Assembly: GCA_023231475.1 (NCBI GenBank)
Contig: JALJEE010002631.1
Coordinates: 1 to 64,000, forward strand
From: Seison nebaliae
Taxonomy: Eukaryota
DNA length: 64,000 nt
Reading direction: 5' to 3'
The notes beneath the pieces are model-generated. The model made no database searches and was not told the origin of the DNA. It saw only the letters and a list, made by a program, of their open reading frames with translations. Shown piece after piece: positions 7,597-56,703 of the stretch; the first letter of the stretch is position 1; every line of letters starts with the position of its first letter. Position numbers and translations under genes: made by a program.

Positions 7597-9185
7597 TTAT
7601 TTCTTAAATGATATCGTTTCATACACATCATTATCTGCGTAAAGATTTCCTGGATTAACGATGACAGATTCGTCTTTATTGAAATGTTTCGTTTTTTGGA
7701 ATCGATCGTTCTCATTAACGATAAATTCGTCGGTTATTGGATAAGTATAATTCTTTGAGTAAAGTGATGGATATCGATTCTTTTTCAATTGAAGTTGTTG
7801 ATAAATGATAAATCCAATTAAAATAATGAGAACAGGAACGATAATCGTTATACAAATAATTACAACGATTGCCAAAATATTCCGATCATTTCTATTATAA
7901 AGCATCGATAATAAATTTGTTTTTGCTGTTTCCTTTTTTTCTTTATTATCTGCTCGAAAGATGGAATAAATTACAAGGAATTTAAAAGAAAATATTAACT
8001 TTTCATATTCCATTTCGATGGATATATTTTGATGGTAGGTAAATATGTTCGTTGTTTTGTTGAAATGATACGAATAGGAATTGGAGTTATTGTTGAAGTT
8101 TCAGTTGAAGTTGTAGTGGTGAGTGGTGAAACGGTGGATGAACTTTTTATTGTGTTATGAAGTTGATTTAGAACGTGATTAATATTTCTATTATCTTCCT
8201 CATTCATGATGGAGAATTCACAAAATTTACCATATTGATGATGTTCACAATGACATTTCCCAGGATCAGTGGAGCAGATTCCTCGACAACGTTTATCATT
8301 CGGTATACACACTTCACAGTACTTCCCTGTAAATGATTTTGGACATCTATGAAAAGTAGAATTATAAGTGCGAAGAGAAAGAAATTGTTCTAACGTGCAA
8401 TGATTAAAGTGTAAACATTGACCACCGTTTTGGCATTTGCATTCAGCTACTTCACACTGTTTACCTTTCCATCCGGATTTACAAACACGCTTTCCCGTTG
8501 CTTCTTCACATTCATAATTGCTCAACAACGATGATCGACAATAATTGGAACATTGTTTACCATAGAAGTAAGTGGAACATCGTCGTTGACCTTTCAACGT
8601 CAAATGGATTTTTGGTAGTTGAACATAATTATAATTATTCAATCGATTATTCGAATTTGCATCGATCCACTTATATTCGTCGATTAATTTCCGATAATTA
8701 CTTTGAAGAAATCGATGATGTGTTCGATATACTTTTATTGAAATTGCAATCGGCGTATTAATCTAAAAAATAATGAAAATTATTAAACTTAAAAGAAAAA
8801 ATTTAACTTTTAATTTTGTTGGGAATTTAATATGGAATGATGATAGTTTCGAAACATTTTCCAACAATGTTCTCTTCTCCCAATAATCACAACTAATTTT
8901 TCTTAACTTGTTCGGGAATAATGCATTGACATTTGTCACACAAAAATCGATTTCAATCCGTTCACATGTTGTTATAGTACGAAAATCCACAAATTGATTC
9001 GTTTCACATTTGGCTGATTCGATCAGTTTGTTGAGATGTTCATTATTCTCTACTTCTAATCTGAAATACCATTTGCATTCCACCTAATCAAATATAAAAA
9101 ATTTAATTAAAAATGTGATAAAGAATCGTCTAACTTGAATTATCCGAATTGCGATGAATAATGAAATTGTGTAAAAGAAAAACAT
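7597..9185 (-). CDS. Delta/Serrate (DSL) family Notch ligand-like protein: signal peptide, MNNL-like region, DSL, EGF repeats, Ser/Thr stalk, TM, cytoplasmic tail
   Basis: Signal peptide MFFFYTISLFIAIRIIQ|V. DSL motif CSTYFYGKQCSNYC...YECEEATGKRVCKSGWKGKQC. EGF CQNGGQC..HCT|CPKSFTGKYC after removing intron 8347-8394. TM segment ILAIVVIICITIIVPVLIILIGFII. Confidence 0.8.
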
Positions 9186-19856: not shown

Positions 19857-20719
19857 TTCACATCATACTAATAAATTTCAATGAGTGATAAATCTGAAAG
19901 AGAAAGAGATTGAATATCGAAGAACCAACATAAATCTAAAAAGGATACTCAAGTTCTTACTTCAGTATAATTAGTATATTTATAAATACGAAAACAAGAA
20001 GAAAATTGAAAGATACTGCTTAAGTTTTATTCATATTTCTTTCTTAAAAACCATTTAATCCATTAATTATATACATAATTATAAAAAATTTTTCTATTAC
20101 ATAAACATCAAGAAGATATTTAATATATTTTTGAAGCTTGAGAATTGAGATGGGAAATTTATAGAACTTTATCGATTTTAATGACAAATTTCCTTCAATG
20201 TTTAACAGGCTTTCTAACAAGTGATGATATTGTTTTTATATAATATATATCTATTAAAGAACATTAATATAAATCTTTTCATTTCAATGACAATTTATAA
20301 AATAAACATTATTTTTGAGTTTTTAAGAGGATCAAATTAAAACTATTACTCTTGAACGAAACTGATATTTTAAAAACCACTACTATTATGCATCTAAATT
20401 GTGTTACGTATGTCATACTTTAATACTTCTCTTAACAATTTGTTTATTTGGATAAGAGCTTAATGGAAATTAGCTTAAGTTGTTGAAGCTTTGAAGGGAA
20501 TAAATTAAGAAAAACAACACAAGAGTATATAAAATGTGATATAACATAAAACTTTGAAAATTATGTAAGCATTGTTATACGTTGTTGCTTGGTAACTGGG
20601 CAAGGACTATTTCTGAAATTTCATCAATATTTCCGTCAAAAAAATATAATTTACACTTTTCGTTATATAAATTTCGATATTTCTACTCATTCTTCAATTT
20701 TTTGTTTTAATTTTTTCAA

Positions 20720-23700
20720 ATGGCACGAACGAAACAAACGTTACATTTCTTATGAATTCAACTAAATTATAATATATAATTAGAGCACGGAAGGGGAAGA
20801 AAGGGGCTGGAGTAATTATCAAACAACAAAAAGAACCGGACGATGAAGATAATTCTGATGAAAGCGAACCAATTGAAAAAAAACAACATGAAGTTTATTT
20901 CAATTTACCTACAAACGTTCAGGAAAGTGACGCAATAATAAAAAAATTTATTGTTACTTCAAATTATTGTAATTAAATTATAAAACCTGTTTCATGGAAG
21001 AAAACTATCGACGACGATTGGAGTAATTATGGTGAGTCAGCAACGAAATTCCATTTCCATGACGTAAAAATTCTGAATGATTATCTCCTTTATTGGATCC
21101 ATGATGAGACGAAAAAGAGAACGAATATTTTTCCCAAACTGAAATACCTCTGTGTTCCTAGTCAGGCTTACATAACTCATTACGCATATAACATTTGTGG
21201 TATTGTTGTTGATAACTCGCATAAATTAGTTAAAATTTTTTTAATAACAATTATCAATTGTTGTCTCACTAAATAATGTTAGAGTTTGGAACGATTCCAT
21301 CAAATCTCCATTTCTCATCATGATACTAAATTGAAACATTCGAGTGATTCGACAGCGTTCGCCGTTGAAATTCATCAAACGGAATACGGTCAGAAATCTT
21401 TGTGTAATATTTTGATGAAAATGAATATTGCCAGTTTTCTTATTATTTCTCTATTGGTTATAATTTAAATGTTATCAGTTCAGTCAAATATCAAATCGAA
21501 CGAGATGTTCTATTCATATGATTTAGATTATAAGTTTACACTCAATTTCTCCAATCTTCCCAACAAACATCAATTGTCGAGAAAACAAACAATCGATTTA
21601 GTTTGGTTGGATTGTGAGAAAGATAATTGTCGAGATAAATTGAAAGAACTTCTCGTTGAATTATATTCGATCAAAGTTTTAAAATTGTCAATTTTGAATA
21701 TTCAAAACACTAAAAATATTTAGGGTACTGAAGGGATCATTTTTTATGACGTTAATAAAACATTGTTGACCGATGAACAATTCAAAGAGATTTTAACGAG
21801 TATTGTCAAAGAACATCAGTCAGAAATGGAAAAGAATTTACGAACAAAATATCCGCCGGACAAGTTCCTTTCATTTCATAGTTCCCACAATAATTACGTC
21901 ATCTTAACAGAACATTTACATTAATGGAACAATTATCAGCTTCTCATCTTGTCCAACGATTGATGTTTTGTGGAGAGTTCTTGAACAAATTTCAATCTCA
22001 GAAATGTCTCTTGACAACTAAAGAAGTTTTTCTTCAAATTTCCAATTATTAAAAATTCTCATTTCTTCATCAGAATGTGAAAGAAAAGTTTATGGAATTA
22101 TGTAAAACGATGGACGATAAGATGTATCATTTGAAAAGTGAATTTAATTTATATAAATCAATTTACACATTCGATGAATTGTTGCAAGAATTATATTTCA
22201 GTTATATCTTTCCGTATAATTATTATTCAATTTGAATTTGTCTTATAGAAAGAGTGGAAGAATCTTTAGTTAATTGTAGATTATTAATCTTTCGTTTATG
22301 TGAGATGGTTAGATTCATTCATATCTTTTATAAGAAAAAATTTTCGCATATTTCTAATTTGTAAACATTTCAGGGTGTTTGGCATTACATTAAAGAACCA
22401 TTTAGTCGATCAACACTCAATTTCGATTCACCAGATGCATTGAAATGTCAGAAATTTTCAAATGATTTAGTAATCGTACAAAAAGCCAAGTTCATGATGT
22501 TAATTGAACGGATTAAAGATCTAAAGATAATGGACTGTAATTGGAAGAATGTTTATGGAATCATTTCAAATTTCAAAACCTTCCAAGATGGTGGTGTTAA
22601 CGAAGTTGTTAGATAATTATTTTCTTACGATTTCATTGAGAAATTGTTTGTTAGGGATTGTGGAGTGAATGTTTATTGCGATTAAATATCGTCTCACCAA
22701 CTCCGAGAAAATTAGTGGAATATGTTGAAATTAATGATAAGATTCTCTCGTCGGTGGTTGAAGAAGTATCGGAAAAAAATGATGATTCGGCATTCAATTC
22801 ATTTTATTTACCGAAATCGAAAAAATTTATATTTTCTCCCGTCAATCAAGAAATTGTTAATGATTTATAGCATTTTCAATTTTAACATCGATTTAAATTT
22901 TAATATGGATTTAGGTTGATTATTATATGGGAATAAAAGAAGAAAAATCGTCGAAGAAGATAAGTGGAACGCCAATTTTTTTGGAATACAAACGTGTTTG
23001 GTATCTAACTTTAGCATTGACGAAATTATGGAAAGAAATTACGAATATATTTGTCTTTTCCGCAAATGGTTCACTATTCACAGAGTATTCTTATACGAAT
23101 AATTTTTTATTGTTTTCAGGATTAATTTCTAAAGGTGAAGATTCTGATGAGAAAAGTATTACTAATGTCGAAATAATATATTTGTGTTCTACACACCTCA
23201 TATTTCGAATTGGTTGTATCGATTTCGGTTTGCAAATCAAATGGGATGTCGGCGACATAAAATCATCGATCATTCATTCAGGTTTTACTCATTTCTGATT
23301 AGTAGAAGATTATCTTTGTTCGAAAGATGAACTAATCTTAACATGTCGGACGTTGAATCCGAATCGAACAATGCAAAACTCCGATACTCTTGATGCCAAT
23401 TTCTTACAATATTTCAGTTCAGTTATCGGTGAAATTACGACAATCATTTCGGCACTTTTAAAGGATATGGAATTGGAGGAATATTATAAGGAATTTGGAG
23501 CCGATATAAAATTTAATAACAGTTTCATTATTTAGTCTTTTCGTTTCTAAATTAGTTTTAGGTATTCCATTTCTCACTCATCAGTTTAAGAAGGACATTT
23601 GTCAGAAATGTGGTATCAATTCAGTTTATCATCGAATTTATTTCGTTAGATGATTTATCCAAATTGTTTCTGTTAATAATATCCAATTTTTGAAGAAAAG

Positions 23701-26700
23701 TTATTTGAAAATTAATTTACCACTAAGATTTACTGATGAATGGATTGTACGTGGACATGTTGTGGCATTACCAGCAAGAGTTAATTCCAAACTAATAACA
23801 CATGGTTCCTTCTGTTTTCTAGTTTCCCTTGTTAACATTTTATTGATTAGAGCAGAACAAAAACACTCAGATGAGAATAAGTGATGCATCAAATGTCATG
23901 GATATTTATAAACCGAATGCATTCAGTGTGAACGAACCATGTTCACTTCATGTTCGTCTAAATAATTATGAATTACGATTTGTCATCGGGATACAAATTG
24001 AGAATTTGAAAGTTTCCTATTCGTCGACTATCAAAATCATCAAGATTCGCATTTTCTTCAATCAAACTAATAACAATATAATCATTGTACCAATAGTTGA
24101 TAAGGATGAACAAGAAGGCACAATAATTGCTTCGAATATCGACCTAAGTTCGTATGTGAGTTATCCTGCGGAGAATGAAACTCAACCGAAGAAACCAGTA
24201 ACTAAAAAGGAAGGAGGAATTGCAAACGAACTAGAGGTTGTTCGTAAAAGTGTGGGTACGGAGAGAGCGAAATTACTCGAAGAATTACAAGCAACACGAA
24301 TGAGTCAACTTTCATCGGTAAAATATACGAAAAATAAACAACCTAACAATAAGACGGCAAGTTTACCTCAAAAATTTGAAGAAGAAAAGGTACTTAAACG
24401 GAGAGTTAAGGCAAAAACTTTGAATACAAAAATGAATGAAGTTGAACCACCGTCATATCCGACAGAAAATAACCAATTGCAAAAACTAAATATGTTTAAA
24501 ATCGATGAAACACAACAACAAAAACAACAACAAAATAATTTTTCTTTTACAAAAAATAAAAGTTTTCAGCCAATACAACAAGAGCAAATGGATGAAGAAT
24601 CATATTTAAGTGAAGATGAATTAGATAGTGATGAATTAGATTGTAATGTGCGTGAGCCACATTGGAAAATTATAAAATCACCCGCAGCGAAAACTTCAAC
24701 GAATCTACGAGATGGTAACATGTTTATGTGTTCTCTTTTGCAAGTGCCAGATGAAAAGACAAAAGTTCAATATTCTCTTTAACAATTATATCCTAAAATT
24801 GTCCTTTTAGTTGTTTCGACCAGCCTCCATTTATTCATATGTCGGTTTTTATTTGAATAATATGCCACTCGGTTTTTTCAATTTGATGGAATTGGATTCG
24901 ATCGTAAATAAACTGAACATCGGAACTACTCAACAAAAAATGAAAATAGAAAAAAAGGATTTGGAAGAACAATTACCATCTTTGTCGATAACACCTTTCC
25001 TAATATCGTCCACGAAAAACAAAAGCGATTTCTGTATATTTAGTAGAAATACTGAGATAAATTTGATTTCTCGTGAAGCGAAAGTTCGATCTAACTTCAT
25101 CTAACTCATTTTTACGTTTTTATCATAATCGGACTTCAGGAAATAAAGAATGGAATGTTGTTGGAAGCTGTGGATCGATTGAATGTACATTTATTGTGTG
25201 TGGCGACAATTATAAATGTTGAAAGAACAATTTATGGAGTGAAAGTAAGAATTCATTTTGATGGTTAAAATATAATTATTCGGTTTTAATGATAAACTTG
25301 ATTGTAAATAATAAAAATCAATTAGGATGGACGGATAGATTTGATTATGAAACGAATATCGATAATTTAGATTTACGACCATGTGGATATCATAAAAATG
25401 CAGAGAACTCCCAACATAGAAATCTGCAGTCACCAAAAGGATATACGGGACGAGAGTTCACTTGGTCGAATTATTTTACAGAAGAGAATCGACAACCAAT
25501 TCCATTTCATATATTCACAAAAGTTAACATAAATTTGAATTATTTAATATGAATATAATATTATAGGAACAAAAAGGATGGATGAAAGTTGAAGATGTCC
25601 CGTCAGAATCCTTTTCGAAAATTCGACTTGATATATTACACCAATGTGAAAATGCTGAACTGAATAGTCGCGTCATTTGGAATCAAATGGTCAAATTATC
25701 ATGTTTAGATGTTGAACGAATATTCTCATCAATGCAAATGAATACGGGTGTCAGAACACTGATGTTGTTACCGAAAAATTTAAATTATGATCAGTTGTTT
25801 ATAGCGAATCAACATGTTTCCATTAGTCAGATGGAGAATCTTCATATGAATTATGGTAACGCATCGCCTCCATGTCTCTTAGATTATCCATCGTTCTCTG
25901 TTGATTTAATGTCTCTTAATGCGATGGATAGATTTGCAATAACCATCTCCCATTTATATCTCATATCATCGAAAGTTCTTTTATCTTCTTTTATCGTTTC
26001 TTCATTGCTTTCAAATAGAATGAAGATATTTTATGTTCCGGATTATGGCATCGGTTAAAATCCTCTTCATTATTCAACTTCATATCTGAAGATTATAACG
26101 AAGTAACTTCTAGTGGAATAATGAAGAAAATCTTGTCGAATGGTTTGAGAAAGATTTTGATTCAAATTGCTCTTCATCTCTCAATCGGAAATATTTCTGA
26201 TACTGATCAAATTATTAACAAATTCATAAACATTTCATTACCTTGGACTGTTTGGAGTAATGTAGAATATTTAACCAATACAACAGATTCATCAATTTCA
26301 GTCTCTCGAGGACTGTTACAAAACAATTTTGAGAAAGAATCCAACAAAGTTTCTAATTCTTTCTCATTGGGTACAAATCTCAAATTTCTTTTCTATTCAG
26401 ATTCTAGAAAATGTTCAACAATTCCATGAAAAGGTAAAGAAACATTCCACCAGTTCCTCGTTCAATAATTATTTTCTTGGAAATGAGGGAATTAATTTGG
26501 AATCGAAAGAATTCCTCCGAAATTTCACTGAAAATTATCTCGAGAAATTAACGACAAGTATAGAAGTGTTAAGTAAGTTCGATGAGAATGGAAGATGTTA
26601 CTTTCAAAATGAGATTAATGGAACGAATTCGATAGTCTCATCGATAGTCGACTGTCTTAATAGTCGAAATATTATTACTAAAATTAGATTCACCAATTCA

Positions 26701-39200: not shown

Positions 39201-40671
39201 GAAAATTCAATTCTTCTAATTCACCAGACATCGGTTGGAAACCTGTATCAGGATTTTCAGCAGTCAATCGACAAGCGATTACATGTGTATGATCGGATTT
39301 CTTATCTAATTCAACATCTTCCAAAACACTTCCTTTGAATGGATTCGTATTTTTTGAGAATAATCTATAAATATCCGAAATATTTCCCAATGGAATTCCC
39401 ATGGCAACCATCAATTGACAGGCAGGTAAATTGACACCACTAATCGCTTCCGTACATGGATGTTCCACTTGTAATCGTGGATTCAATTCAAGAAAACAAT
39501 ATTTCTTCGTTGCACTATCATATAAATATTCTACTGTTCCTGCATTCGAATAATTCACAGCAACAGCTAAATCCACAGCATTTTTTTCCATTTCTTTACG
39601 AATAGAAATTGGAGCAATAATTGCTGGTGCTTCCTCAATAATCTTTTGATGACGTCGTTGAACGGAACAATCACGACCAAATAACGATACAATATTTCCA
39701 TGAGCATCACCTAATAATTGCACTTCTAAATGACGACAATTTGATGCTAATTTCATGAGAAAGATTGGAGAGGCAGGAACTTCTTGCATCACCTGTCGGA
39801 ATTGTTGAAGGAAATCAGAAGATTTTTGACATAATCTTATTCCTTTTCCCCCACCACCTTCACTCGCTTTAATCATTAATGGAAAACCAATCTTTTCTGC
39901 TTTATTCATAATGTCATTATCATTAATATTGACACAAGCCGATTGAAAAATATCATCAGGAACGGTCGAATTCTTCAAATCGATATCTTTCGGTAACTGG
40001 ATACCAGAACCGCTCCATGGTACTGTTGGAACATTGACTGATTGTGCGATAATCGTCGAAGCGATCTTATCACCTAACGCCCACATCGCTCGTTGATGTG
40101 GTCCACAAAATATAATTCCATTATTTTGTAATAATTCTGGTAATTTTGGATTTTCGGAAGCGTGTCCCCATCCCGCCCAAACTGCATCAGCCTTCTCTCG
40201 AAGTGCAATATTAACAATCAATTCGACATTCGCATAATTATTATTGTTGGAACCGGATGGAACGGCTACCGTAACGTCAGCTAATCGAATATATTGAGCA
40301 TTGGCATTCAAATCTTCTGGTGTGTACATTACAATGATTGTCAAATTCTTCTCATTATAAAATGTGCGTAATGCCCATTGTCTCAATGACTTGATTGCTT
40401 TCACTGCGGCCAATCCATTATTGGCAATCAATAACCGTTTAATCGGTTTAGTTCCATTATGATATTCTACAAATTCTTCAACCGAATTCCATTTGTTCTT
40501 ATATTCTCCTTTCGCCTTCTTCTTCTTTTCCATTTCCTCATTCTTAAATTGTTCATTGATCACATACGCTGGTTCCACCAACATTTTCCCCTCATTATCT
40601 GGAACTTCTCCATTCCACAACTTCTCACTATTCACCTTTCTCCTAACCATTCTTCCTTTAATTCGTCTCAC
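33205..40671 (-). CDS. ACC: Acetyl-CoA carboxylase (BC-BT-BCCP-central-CT); essentially one 7.4-kb exon, true start uncertain
   Basis: LLIANNGLAAVK, AVWAGWGHASENP, KASEGGGGKG, RDCSVQRRHQK, biotinylation motif EVMKM, SANSGARIG and ANWRGFSGG. Confidence 0.97.
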   Translation of the reverse strand: MRRIKGRMVRRKVNSEKLWNGEVPDNEGKMLVEPAYVINEQFKNEEMEKKKKAKGEYKNKWNSVEEFVEYHNGTKPIKRLLIANNGLAAVKAIKSLRQWALRTFYNEKNLTIIVMYTPEDLNANAQYIRLADVTVAVPSGSNNNNYANVELIVNIALREKADAVWAGWGHASENPKLPELLQNNGIIFCGPHQRAMWALGDKIASTIIAQSVNVPTVPWSGSGIQLPKDIDLKNSTVPDDIFQSACVNINDNDIMNKAEKIGFPLMIKASEGGGGKGIRLCQKSSDFLQQFRQVMQEVPASPIFLMKLASNCRHLEVQLLGDAHGNIVSLFGRDCSVQRRHQKIIEEAPAIIAPISIRKEMEKNAVDLAVAVNYSNAGTVEYLYDSATKKYCFLELNPRLQVEHPCTEAISGVNLPACQLMVAMGIPLGNISDIYRLFSKNTNPFKGSVLEDVELDKKSDHTHVIACRLTAENPDTGFQPMSGELEELNFRSSPNAWAYFSIGVSGSIHEYADSQFGHCFAFGHTRDEARLNMILTLKQISIRSQFRHTVPYLIYLLQHEEFKDLNIHTGWLDKLLVNTKKLTYTTLTNTLLQRASIAALHVGMKRAEIAKQTFTKSLERGQLHSSLAALASSHMIDLIGDGKKFAIRVTCTGPHSYFLVMNHSFIEIDARNMSDGSLLVKWENRSYSTFLHEDEQKYTLSINNEISIFEKENDPTIMRSPTAGKLIQYLVEDNAHVFQNDAYCEIEVMKMIMEVRATASGLVKYVKRPGAILETGSIIATLQLDDVGKIQQAEIFTGSFPNATIKSIFDEEIDDESLMKNIDLHLHIKSAIDILENILDGHSYPERYVEDKIVCTIEDLMIGLKNPSLPLLELRELMAISAGRLPNVLENAIKQLLAVYHSNLTSVLVQFPADKILQCIEQYMKMAFNSDRRTTSTSTEISNDSNESSSTTSSLSLNNIQDKQTKNEELQFMQLIKPIMELADRYRNGIQGHTVQVIRQFIQKYLSIEEKFQNNNFEKSVEFIRLSDIPSDELTKMLFSHSNLLNKNLLIVHLLNQLISMVPSRTDDFTPLLLRLTQMTSPKHSRVALRARQILIMMQLPPYEQRHNQMESIFLSAINSYGQTPCEETLKKLIVSETSLYDVLQDFFFHSNIRVRQAALEVYVRRSYIAYELHSIHHHLSMIISEADKQGQRQFNDENRSIISQRQKLRTESICSESLLEKNRENEFIMTEFKLRLPESHPHHIRRNESSHRRLASLGGMRSHDIIDDPVSVNNNNNSNNNLTTSNSNGDGSDNFSLFNIQQSSLIFQRKGIIAAFPSLDTMIDNFETTLQKFSIKQSSTLMGENSLSAISTQTDNHLNHHSGSQLSLALSDRDEPMNLLHICIRAMTSNELRNSDNDWSSILQQFIKGRKQLLNDANIRRVTFIIAKMRQFPLYFTFRARDHFVEDRIYRHLEPALAFQLEISRLRNFDLEAIQTTNHKIHLYMGKAKKKPLTDIRFFARSIVRNRDLLTKEASFEYIRSEAERTLLEAMDELDLAFTHPEARKSDYNHIFMCFVPTVSLDESYLQETVKNMILTYGPRIWKLRILHAELKFCIRDGNGMRPIRCYVKNDNGIRISLSMYDELTDETTGQTIFSALNKNRLGVLHNKPINTPYEIKDDYQQRRFQANKLDTTFVKDFPEMFRNVNLSRWRIYSIVTGCSLSSSMSFHAFSCKSLILRKKEDVEIGKKNFDVDDYLMVPVDVNDEEALNQKIGMVAWLMNMKTPEAPNGRQIIVIANDITYQIGSFGTLEDILYLKASQLARSMRIPRIYISANSGARIGLSESMKSKFHICWRNEQNPDEGFDYLYLEEEEYEELVKLDELDTLNLELIELSDDKKRYKIKSIIGKEKDLGVENLSGSGLIAGETMRAYEEIPTISLVTCRAIGIGAYIVRLSERIIQTDSSHIILTGAAALNKVLGDEVYTSNSQLGGIQIMHNNGVTHTVVLNDYEGVLQLLVWLSYVPCRMSDICCPLLSINDPINRKVNYIPSSNSTYDSRWLLAGKTKADECSFCNQVNSDVYPISSEYAYLSLFNQEQQTGNGKTDQPFQSIQSGFFDRNSFVEIMKIWARTVIVGRARLGGIPCGVISVEVRTVKKSIPADPANSNSEASIIQQAGQVWYPDSAFKTAQSLKDFQREKLPIFIFANWRGFSGGMKDMYDQVLKFGAMIVEALVEYTQPIFIYLPPYSEVRGGAWAVIDSTINKRYMEMYADPTARAGVLEPEGTVEIKYREKDLVKTMARLDRVCSSFKQDIEQLQNSINIVDDDQKKKMLNKRLEEKKNQLQMREINLMSSYRQAAVRFADLHDSADRMLSKKVIRKIVDWKNSRQFFYYRLKRLQLEQSIIDLIVEKNETYNSSDWNTIRLKLKELYKNENFDDNDKEVDEWYLEQIDLEDHQIIGIKSESSLQQLIRSEAKDEELLENLKELVGRLKNEKNENFELQLKNLLNELN

Positions 40672-40928
40672 TAGAAATGGTGTTAAACTAATTATCTATG
40701 AGACAAATGTAAATTTTTATGGGAAAAAAAATTATTAATTTTCAGTTCTATTATCATCATATATGACCAAAGAACGAGAAATAACGAGATATCAAAAAAT
40801 ATTTCAATTAACACTTATAGAATAATCTGATGATATTTTGTAGAAAAAAGATGTTAAAATGATGTGACTGTCTCTATGTGTATATGTCCGTAGTTACGTG
40901 TGCATGTATGAGAGAAAAAGGAAAAAAT

Positions 40929-53840: not shown

Positions 53841-56703
53841 TCAATTCTTCTCGAATACTTTCCCATTAATCAAACCATCAACAATTGGCAATGGTTTCGA
53901 GTTGTCACTAATTTCTAATAAAGCAATCATTGGTTCACTCATAGAAGGTAGACCTTCGATTTTACTTTTAAAAAAATATCTAAAAATAAATAAAGTGAAT
54001 ATTTGTGAGAGTGGTGAGAATGAATGAAACCTGTAGTTACCTTTCTTTGGAAGGATTTTTATGAAATCAGATAAATATGGTTTGGAATAGAATGTCATTT
54101 GAGAGACATAAGGAAACTCTTCATTCGGCATATGATATAATACTTTAGCGTCACTCATCAATTGCCGATCTTCCATTTTCTTTGTACTACCCAAACCAGC
54201 ATTTCCAGTGTTCAACGATGAACCAACTGCCGAATCCATATTAACGAATAATTGTGAAGAGATACCGGAATCATGACTCAATTTATGATGAGATCGTGGT
54301 TCAGAATTCATCGATTTATTATTATTGTTGTTATTGTTTGTGAATTGATTAGCGAACATAGATTGTTGTCGATTGTATTTTGGAGTAAATTTTAAATAAT
54401 CTTCATGAGACTCAATGAAATTAGAATTTCCATATTGATTAGTTTTCTCTTTCGTTTCATTCATTAATTCTTCTTCTTCATTATAAATAATTTTCGAATC
54501 ATTCTCATCATTGTGACAGAGAACTTGATCATAATGTTCATTCAGAATATTCTCCGCATCTTGATTTATATCAACTTTCTCTTTATTTTTCTTATTCTTC
54601 TCTTCATCATCTGCTGTCAACATCAAATCATCATTATTCAAAAGAAACGGTGCCATTGATACACCAGCATCTAATTCATGGGAAGACGAATCGTTTTGCA
54701 TTTTAGATATTAAAGTTGTTTCTTTTTTCTCTTCTCCAATCATCGTACTATTGAAGAAATCGTTAGTGAACGATGTTTGCTGATCCAAATGTTCTTCATC
54801 CTCATTCGTTTGTGTCTTCACTTCACTTAATCGATCACTTAAAATTTTCGCGAATAAATTTGGATTAGTTCTCGCTATCCGATAATGATAATCGTTCGAC
54901 TGAAAAATAATTAGAATATTTTTCAGATATTTTTTAACAAATTAATTAACTTCACTTCCTTCAACTTTTTCCTTCTCTTCTTTCAACACATCAGTAATCG
55001 TTGAGGTTACCCATTTTCTGTTAGAAGCGTCACTCGAATAACCGTCAGTTGTATCATCTTTTCTGTAAAAACAAAGAGAATTAATTTCAGAATAAATATT
55101 TTCTGAATTTTTTGAAAATTATTTTTAGTTCAAGTTCCAAAAATTCTCTACTAAACAATCGATAATTGATATAGTTAACGAAATTTTGTGGATCGTTGAG
55201 AACGATGGCACGAGCTTTCGCATTTTGACGGAATGTTTTCGATAAGACGTTCCTTATACATTCTTCGTCCACATCCATTTGCATCTTAAGAAACCTTTTT
55301 ATTTTTTTTCACTTCAACAAAATTTTCACTTTATTATCTATTATGAAATTATGAAATTTGCTTTAGAAGAAAAATAGGAAGATCCATTTGAATTTAAATG
55401 AATTTGGAATTTATTCTTCTTATAGAAACTTCCTTTCATCTTCTACTAGCCAGAGAAAAGTTATGATAAATTAAATTTTTCTTGCCCACATCAGCAACAT
55501 TTCCTTAACTATTCTAATTTCATCAAACAAACGGAGATTAAGGTTCTCGTTCTTCACCAATGGAAAATAATTAGTAAATAAACAACCTCTTCAACTTATT
55601 CAAAAATTTTCGAAAACTTTTGAATAAAAAATAGGAAAGAAAAGAACTAACATGATATTATCTAAATGATCCAGCGAGTCTAATGAAGTGAGATCACTTC
55701 CGATTCGTGAAGTGAAATGTGGATAGAATGACGTCGATAATTTCGCTTGGTCATTTTTCTTATTCATCGAATATCGAAATGCTTCATGATCTGACATGAC
55801 GCCATTGTCCATTGTGTCCAGTTTCTTTTGACGAAGGAAATTGAAATTTATTGGTTTCTGCTTCCGATTCTTATTAGACAATTTCTCCATTAATCGATTC
55901 CCAAATGACGTGCATTCTGTATCAGTCATAACACCATGATCATTAACTAAATGATTCTTTAGAAACATCTTTGTCTTCATTTTATTCTTATGAATTTCCG
56001 GTTTCTTCACATTCTCATTCATTAGGAACTTTTGCGAGAATTTCTCATTGTAAATTTTTAAGAATTCATCTAAAATGTTATCGTTCCAATATGTTATCAA
56101 ATCAATAATGACTTCATTAAAAATATCGTTCGTAAATCGACGATGACGAATATTATCAACGAGTTTATGTTTCGTATCGTTTCTCATCCATTTTCCAACA
56201 TGGAAATTCTTATGAATATTATTTCGATAAATATTTTTTATTAATGATTTCGATTCCGTCGTACATGTTCTCCCACGATATTGCATTAATTTTTTGATTG
56301 AACAAAAAATTGTCAATTCCGAACTTGCACCACATTTTTTTACATAATTCTTAAATTCCTGCCATTTCGATGGATTATTTATTACATCGATAATTAACGA
56401 TAATTTTTCTTTATTTGCTGATCGATTTATAAAACAAATGATATCGATATCATCATTCTCGTTTTCATCAGGAAAGTTCGGTTTGAATTGATTGTCATTA
56501 ATTGTAATGAAACTACAATCACTCATTTCAATATCATCCAACATTTCGCTTGATGCTAAACGTTTACTACAATTCAGTATTTCATTTCTCTCACAATCGG
56601 AATGTACGGGAAGAGATCGAGTGGATTCTATATGAATTGTTTTCGCATTAATTTCCGTCGGATACGAAGGGAAACAACGATCTGATCTTGTAAATTCAAA
56701 CAT
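53841..56703 (-). CDS. AXIN: Axin (RGS, GSK3-binding, beta-catenin-binding, DIX); multi-exon
   Basis: RGS-like SLIIDVINNPSKWQEFKNYVKK. GSK3-binding-like NPNLFAKILSDRLSEV. Beta-catenin-binding DAENILNEHYDQV. DIX LYHMPNEEFPY...LSDFIKILPKKGNYR|YFFK...EISDNSKPLPIVDGLINGKV. Confidence 0.88.

What the first reader, a model, noticed from the sequence alone, without database searches (positions are those of the whole stretch)
20720..20830. Histone H3 tail mimic (MARTKQTARK) at the N-terminus of a giant non-histone ROCO protein, hidden by a 44-nt intron
Seen: ATG GCA CGA ACG AAA CAA AC | intron 20740-20783 (GTTAC...TTAG) | A GCA CGG AAG GGG AAG AAA GGG GCT GGA gives MARTKQTARKGKKGAG. The first 10 residues are identical to histone H3, with R2, T3, K4, T6, R8 and K9 in register after Met removal. 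The sequence then diverges into an acidic stretch, with no histone fold. The ORF track misses it because the first exon is only 20 nt. Established: H3 K4/K9 are substrates for SET-domain methyltransferases and ligands for PHD, chromo and MBT readers, and histone mimics exist (G9a, influenza NS1). Inference: this is a selected mimic that can be modified by chromatin enzymes or act as a decoy or sensor for them.
Basis: partly seen in the sequence, partly recalled or inferred. Interest (0 to 1): 0.92.

Follow-up and report, generated by a model that had tools for sequence, protein, structure and literature searches.

The report
Histone H3 tail on ROCO-TIR proteins
A giant signalling protein of a tiny marine animal is predicted, once a 44-base intron is removed, to start with the first nine residues of histone H3; database models of its relatives in a clam, a scallop, a snail and a worm start with the first eight, and the protein also carries a methyl-lysine reader domain that would likely let it sense when this copied tail is modified.

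Summary
ATG 20720, the 20-nt exon and the 44-nt GT..AG intron give MARTKQTARKGKKGAG. No other start in the window or in shuffles comes close. A public Seison nebaliae model (3066 aa) matches the gene exon by exon and uses this splice. The intron fits the gene's other 34, all starting GTT. No RNA read confirms it. The protein is degenerate ROCO–MBT–LRR–Roc–COR–TIR–TIR, with no histone fold. New here: four homologues (Mercenaria, Ylistrum, Owenia, Littorina) also begin ARTKQTAR. They lie in separate branches; one clade is rejected. Residue 9 varies (K, Q, R, A, Q), so the shared unit is H3 1–8, centred on K4, not K9. Rotifer orthologues lack it and have the subfamily's usual lysine-rich tip. The Seison and Littorina proteins carry an MBT repeat with an intact-looking methyl-lysine cage; the other three have none. 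Best reading (0.4): a repeatedly gained, modifiable H3 handle, read by the protein's own MBT to gate a GTPase–TIR switch. Function is untested. This scan earlier noted H3-tail starts on unrelated families in other genomes; none on ROCO proteins.

The parts
20720..31661 (+). Whole gene, 36 exons, 3066 aa: H3 tail - degenerate LRR/Roc/COR - MBT - LRR - Roc - COR - TIR - TIR
   Evidence: Exact exon map of public model P0207; domains
20593..20642 (+). Upstream non-coding stretch also present in a second, divergent, low-depth genome; possible promoter element (inferred)
   Evidence: aligned piece 20620-20642 with 1 difference, and a loose end resembling about 20593-20619 by eye
20720..20739 (+). 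Exon 1 (20 nt): Met-A1-R2-T3-K4-Q5 and two bases of T6
20740..20783 (+). Intron 1, 44 nt, GTTAC..TTAG, phase 2, inside the T6 codon
   Evidence: same splice in P0207; not shown by RNA
20784..20952 (+). Exon 2: end of T6, A7-R8-K9, a KGKKG-type basic stretch (20791-20811), acidic stretch (about 20830-20883)
   Evidence: KGKKG also at the tip of a Biomphalaria MBT-subfamily model
21064..23713 (+). Degenerate N-terminal LRR/Roc/COR-like half (aa 85-751); links the tail exons to the ROCO gene
   Evidence: 570 colinear columns against a profile of 25 relatives, pairwise E 0.0055 (weak); reversed control E 0.78
25143..25569 (+). Single MBT repeat plus following arm (aa 1179-1285), cage positions D1189, F1217, W1220, F1224
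   Evidence: Pfam PF02820 E 3.5e-13; alignment to L3MBTL1/3 structures; positions
26623..27613 (+). Leucine-rich repeats
27713..28311 (+). Roc GTPase with P-loop, G3 and G4 motifs
   Evidence: PF08477 E 1.8e-18; motifs
28351..29301 (+). COR-A and COR-B
29602..29880 (+). First TIR-like domain (weak, below Pfam cut-off)
   Evidence: E 0.0019
29947..30425 (+). Second TIR domain with a C-x-x-E motif (E2728)
   Evidence: PF13676 E 8.5e-14; motif in 12 of 12 aligned family members

Best explanation
The gene encodes an MBT-LRR-Roc-COR-TIR protein predicted to start, after splicing and likely Met removal, with histone H3 residues 1-9; this tail is likely a selected substrate for H3K4 methyltransferases, and once methylated it would be bound by the protein's own MBT pocket, which would gate the GTPase-TIR signalling unit. 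Shown: the sequence, the domain order, the cage residues, the same eight residues in four other family models, and their scattered places on the tree. Inferred: the subfamily's usual tip is a lysine-rich basic tail, and H3 1-8 was put on that tip several times, probably by capture of the 5' end of an H3 gene, with the rest decaying. In Seison, K9 may come from the older KGKKG tail rather than from H3. Also inferred: low methylation of K4, binding in cis or between ROCO partners, and control of TIR output.
For: Five proteins from five genera share exactly H3 1-8, then diverge; one clade of the first four is rejected (AU p 1.6e-127, 45 rows); 5 changes on a 49-row tree. Littorina has the start in two separate annotations. 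0 of 48 human H3-mimic proteins has this 8-residue start. Mercenaria keeps 15 of 18 H3 residues, which points to capture from H3. MBT cage pattern is met in 38 of 41 complete repeats in the family; Seison has Phe for Tyr, as in SCML2/SCMH1, which prefer monomethyl-lysine (PMC3229088 passages). Tail and MBT occur together in Seison and Littorina, which are rejected as sisters (p 0.0027, long branch). 19 of 26 long MBT members have 3 or more Lys in residues 2-12, against 5% of background windows. Set7/9 methylates K4 of non-histone H3 mimics in vitro (PMC8166343 section 16).
Against: 3 of 5 tail-bearing proteins have no MBT by Pfam or by a family profile, so a cis latch cannot be the general rule. 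The link between MBT and a Lys-rich tip rests on only 1-2 independent pairs (sign test p 1). The tail is rare: 4 of 210 homologues (3 of 74 long, Met-started ones), 1 of 129 new hits, 0 of 77 extra cluster members, 0 of 80 metagenome loci. The nearest orthologues lack it. Tail and MBT are about 1170 residues apart. Characterised MBT readers have 2-4 repeats; this has one. All five starts are gene models.
Confidence: 0.4

Rival explanations
1. The tail is a docking or localisation handle: unmodified or K4-methylated H3 1-8 binds nuclear readers in trans (PHD fingers, RBBP4/NuRD, WDR5) or acts as a basic import signal, and the MBT reads other proteins.
For: Fits all five proteins, with or without MBT. 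The conserved unit is the free N-terminus, R2 and K4, which PHD readers need; human mimics bind PHD, Tudor and NuRD (PMC8166343 abstract). It replaces a basic tip at the same position.
Against: A four-residue motif suffices in human mimics, so eight exact residues are not explained. No localisation data.
Confidence: 0.27
2. The tail is an integrated decoy: bait for pathogen or parasite enzymes that modify, bind or clip H3 tails, and damage to it fires the TIR domains as in plant NLR immune receptors.
For: LRR-NTPase-TIR layout with a C-x-x-E motif in TIR2 (Glu role in PMC9153377 passages). Owenia has a Rho-type GTPase fused right behind the tail. Repeated independent gain is expected of decoys (concept: PMC4246468 abstract). 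Aplysia relatives were listed as TLR-like immune candidates (PMC9334734 passages).
Against: No pathogen, expression or effector data. No NB-ARC or NACHT domain. The COR exon shows 31 synonymous against 3 changed codons versus a second genome (from the differences listed), which is purifying, not arms-race, change.
Confidence: 0.22
3. The tail is a neutral passenger or a modelling artefact: H3 fragments landed at these 5' ends and supplied a start codon, or predictors joined stray H3 pieces to the genes.
For: No RNA proof for any of the five. Four of the five clusters have a single member. H3 genes are abundant donors (own knowledge). Close orthologues lack the tail.
Against: Identity ends at or one past the same residue five times. 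In Seison the motif is split by an intron and runs on into exon 2 in frame, so it is not a stray piece. Two annotations agree in Littorina.
Confidence: 0.11

Closest known systems
H3 N-terminal mimicry proteins (H3TMs: VRK1, BCL11B, TSHZ1, HIVEP1; Chen et al. 2021, PMC8166343)
   Same: Non-histone protein whose N-terminus fits iMet-[AGSCTPV]-R-x-K, with K4 in register
   Different: Human H3TMs match H3 over only a few residues (0 of 48 have ARTKQTAR) and are enriched in chromatin proteins; here 8-9 exact residues sit on a GTPase-TIR protein that has its own reader domain
Internal or C-terminal histone mimics: G9a ARKT, influenza NS1 ARSK (as described in PMC8166343)
   Same: Histone-tail copy in a non-histone protein; in G9a, mimic and chromatin module share one chain
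   Different: Those are 4-residue, non-N-terminal motifs; G9a pairs mimic with a writer, this protein with a reader
Invertebrate LRR-Roc-COR-TIR proteins, including Aplysia LOC101848126 with an MBT repeat (PMC9334734)
   Same: Same domain order and same family (P0036)
   Different: The paper's main text has 0 occurrences of 'histone'; the H3 tip is not described
L3MBTL1/L3MBTL3 and SCML2 MBT readers
   Same: Asp plus Phe/Trp/aromatic cage positions kept
   Different: One repeat instead of 2-4, set in a ROCO protein; binding untested
Plant NLRs with integrated decoys (RRS1, RGA5; PMC4246468 abstract)
   Same: LRR plus nucleotide-binding switch plus TIR, carrying a copy of a host target
   Different: Roc-COR instead of NB-ARC; no partner or effector known

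Membership tests
H3TM (Chen 2021) | iMet-[AGSCTPV]-R-x-K at the N-terminus | tested here: met
   M-A-R-T-K in the spliced model; depends on the predicted splice and start
H3TM (Chen 2021) | K4 methylation and binding by PHD/Tudor readers or NuRD | not testable with these tools
   Needs peptide assays
Histone H3 or variant | Histone fold after the tail | tested here: not met
   No histone family among 11 Pfam hits of P0207; an acidic stretch follows
ROCO | Roc directly followed by COR | tested here: met
ROCO | Intact P-loop, G3 and G4 motifs | tested here: met
   GTPase activity itself not testable
LRRK-type ROCO kinase | Protein kinase domain after COR | tested here: not met
   TIR domains, no kinase hit
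MBT methyl-lysine reader | MBT repeat with Asp and three aromatic cage residues | tested here: met
   which aligned columns form the cage is partly recalled, residue types from PMC3229088
MBT methyl-lysine reader | Two or more tandem repeats | tested here: not met
   One repeat plus one arm; Branchiostoma relatives have two
MBT methyl-lysine reader | Binds mono/dimethyl-lysine | not testable with these tools
   Needs binding assay
Enzymatic (NADase) TIR | Catalytic Glu in helix alpha-C | tested here: inconclusive
   C-x-x-E kept in 12 of 12 aligned members, but no alignment to a solved TIR was obtained
NLR with integrated decoy | NB-ARC or NACHT domain | tested here: not met
   Roc-COR instead
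NLR with integrated decoy | Effector acting on the decoy triggers signalling | not testable with these tools
   No effector known

The most novel reading that the evidence does not exclude
Animal ROCO-TIR proteins are methylation-gated switches with tail and reader in one chain. They have captured histone H3 1-8 at least five times and shed K9 in four of them, so that H3K4 writers, of the host or of an invader, directly control a TIR enzyme outside chromatin.
Probability: 0.25. Interest if true: 0.9.

Novelty: new variant of a known kind. Interest (0 to 1): 0.72.

Why it matters
Known cellular H3 mimics are short motifs, mostly on chromatin proteins. An exact eight-residue copy gained repeatedly in one signalling family, stopping at the same residue, marks which part of the H3 tail is useful off chromatin. 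With an MBT cage in the same chain it gives a cheap test of whether histone-modifying enzymes regulate a ROCO GTPase-TIR protein, a family with no known ligand or output. It also shows that such tips are easy to miss behind a 20-nt first exon.

Tried and rejected
RNA evidence: no RNA holder listed; the runs laid were contigs, those covering the stretch look like DNA and show no joint at the intron, and one guessed-RNA run laid nothing; this says nothing on expression. A low-depth divergent contig spans the start region but its H3 exons did not align, so conservation within the genus is untested. No whole genome was held, so the organism's own H3 genes could not be compared. A search for any long protein with the tail could not work: such short matches score far above the allowed E-value, and the four-protein profile returned only P0207 and one protein without the tail. 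Hidden tails in relatives: 0 of 80 metagenome loci, but only L001/L002 (apparently the same gene) are close relatives with enough upstream DNA. One orthologous group: rejected. K9-centred mimicry: rejected as the family rule. Co-evolution of MBT and Lys-rich tip: Fisher p 1.5e-4, but not upheld by independent pairs. Profile search of the Seison N-terminal half was not significant by HMMER and only weak by hhalign. TIR exon against solved structures: no TIR hit. The Seison genome paper (PMC8351084, passages) does not say how model SNEBB_002052 was made; its supplements were not read.

Full report
Observation. The sequence is as described: a 20-nt first exon from ATG 20720, a 44-nt GT..AG intron, and a second exon that completes T6 and gives A7-R8-K9, then GKKGAG and an acidic stretch. 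The match to H3 (residues 1-18 as printed in PMC8166343) is Met plus residues 1-9. The unspliced frame stops after 11 codons. Allowing every ATG any 36-80 nt intron, this site scores 10/10; the next best of 2771 ATGs is 6/10, and 18,219 ATGs in 15 shuffles reach 5/10.

Is the splice real? No RNA read was available, so it is inferred. Four lines support it. A public model, KAI3380042.1 of Seison nebaliae (P0207, 3066 aa), maps residue for residue to 20720-31658 and uses this intron. All 35 mapped introns start GTT and are 40-66 nt, and intron 1 has the commonest donor and acceptor; a trained predictor could bias this. Acceptor 20783 is the only one in that size range that keeps the frame open through exon 2. 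Without exon 1 the next Met is residue 184, which would cut into a region that aligns, weakly but colinearly, with the N-terminal half of relatives (E 0.0055, reversed control 0.78; HMMER alone not significant).

The protein. Pfam gives MBT, LRR, Roc, COR-A, COR-B and TIR, no kinase and no histone fold. The Roc G motifs are intact and the second TIR keeps a C-x-x-E motif in 12 of 12 aligned members; its match to the catalytic Glu of TIR NADases (PMC9153377, passages) is inferred, as a structure search gave no TIR hit. It aligns with L3MBTL1 and L3MBTL3 structures and keeps Asp, Phe, Trp and a third aromatic residue, Phe where L3MBTL1 has Tyr. PMC3229088 (passages) reports this swap in SCML2 and SCMH1, which prefer monomethyl-lysine. 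The pattern is met in 38 of 41 complete repeats in the family; 4 partial segments were left out.

Relatives. Two searches with the Roc-COR region returned 210 distinct proteins (one search listed 120 of 156; one search listed 91, one shared). Four begin ARTKQTAR: Seison, Mercenaria XP_053405100.1, Owenia CAH1772675.1, Ylistrum XP_060062845.1. Many models lack their N-terminus; among 74 long, Met-started ones the count is 3. A search with the Mercenaria N-terminal half gave 134 hits, 129 new, of which one has the tail: Littorina saxatilis, where a GenBank and a RefSeq model agree and the 2815-aa form has MBT, LRR, Roc, COR and TIR. None of 77 further cluster members and none of 80 metagenome loci has it. 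The bdelloid orthologues nearest to Seison start with other basic sequences.

Pattern. All five match H3 1-8; residue 9 is K, Q, A, R or Q, and S10 survives in three that lost K9. Mercenaria keeps 15 of 18 H3 residues, which points to capture from an H3 gene and decay after residue 8. On Roc-COR trees (178 rows, 32 short ones dropped; subsets of 46 and 49 rows) they fall in the MBT, SPRY and third subfamilies. One clade of the first four is rejected (p 1.6e-127), as are the two bivalves (p 4.7e-64) and Seison with Littorina (p 0.0027, long branch). The tree cannot by itself tell gain from loss, but five gains need far fewer events than many losses. In the MBT subfamily 19 of 26 long members have a Lys-rich tip, against 12 of 48 others and 5% background; this is one or two independent contrasts only. 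A Biomphalaria member starts with the same KGKKG that follows R8 in Seison, so Seison's K9 may come from the older tail. For scale, 0 of 48 human H3-mimic proteins has the eight-residue start (PMC8166343 Table S1).

Mechanism. I commit to a tail-and-reader switch at 0.4: Met is removed, a K4 methyltransferase modifies the tail as Set7/9 does for human mimics in vitro, and the MBT cage binds it in cis or across ROCO partners to gate the TIR end. All these steps are inferred. The strongest objection is that three of five tail-bearing proteins have no MBT. Rivals are docking on nuclear readers (0.27), a decoy for microbial enzymes (0.22; Owenia has a Rho GTPase behind the tail, but the COR exon shows purifying change) and passenger or artefact (0.11). 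I put the spliced start at about 0.9 and selection on the eight residues at about 0.8.

Literature. Read: PMC8166343 (abstract, sections 12 and 16, passages, Table S1); PMC3229088, PMC9334734, PMC8351084, PMC9153377, PMC7037402, PMC9677696 (passages); PMC4246468 and PMC11378527 (abstracts). Searches for the tail with ROCO, MBT, TIR or mimicry terms (listings only) showed no paper on an H3 tail in this family; the library lacks most subscription journals. The MBT-ROCO-TIR layout itself is noted for Aplysia. This scan's earlier notes report H3-tail starts on unrelated families in other genomes and none for ROCO proteins; I did not test those notes.

Verdict. Real feature, new variant of a known kind. 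The recurrence, the cut-off at residue 8 and the built-in reader make it surprising and directly testable; RNA proof and any function are missing. Interest 0.72.

Noticed in passing
window 20740-31503 (+): All 35 mapped introns of this gene start GTT (none GTA, GTG or GTC) and are 40-66 nt, so the usual GTRAG donor (recalled) seems replaced; GTT is 45% of GT sites in the window. Model-derived, not checked in other genes.
   Followed up: partly
P0166 (Owenia) residues 21-189: A Rho-type small GTPase domain is fused directly behind the H3 tail, ahead of the ROCO body.
   Followed up: no
P0197 (Trichoplax) about 1035-1222; P0132, P0133, P0136, P0205 (Branchiostoma): Weak chromo/Agenet/Tudor-like hits beside the MBT in Trichoplax and two MBT repeats in amphioxus: reader modules vary in this family.
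   Followed up: no
P0415, P0416 (Biomphalaria) N-terminus: Start Met-Pro-Pro-Lys, the recalled consensus of N-terminal methyltransferases: another possible methylation site at the tip of an MBT member.
   Followed up: no
window 28884-29129 and 20620-21126: Runs X1-X3 and X5 hold a second, divergent genome at roughly a fifth to a tenth of the depth; listed differences in the COR exon are 31 synonymous to 3 changed codons (the list was cut).
   Followed up: partly
window 33205-40695 (-): Acetyl-CoA carboxylase lies in one 2496-codon open frame, while the neighbouring ROCO gene has an intron about every 300 bases.
   Followed up: no
L018-L080: Most of these loci come from one metagenome assembly and encode distant ROCO proteins (28-34% identity): a large expansion in some eukaryote.
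   Followed up: no
window 7995-8762 (-), 53841-54941 (-): DSL/EGF (Delta-like) and DIX-domain genes, in line with an animal source.
   Followed up: no
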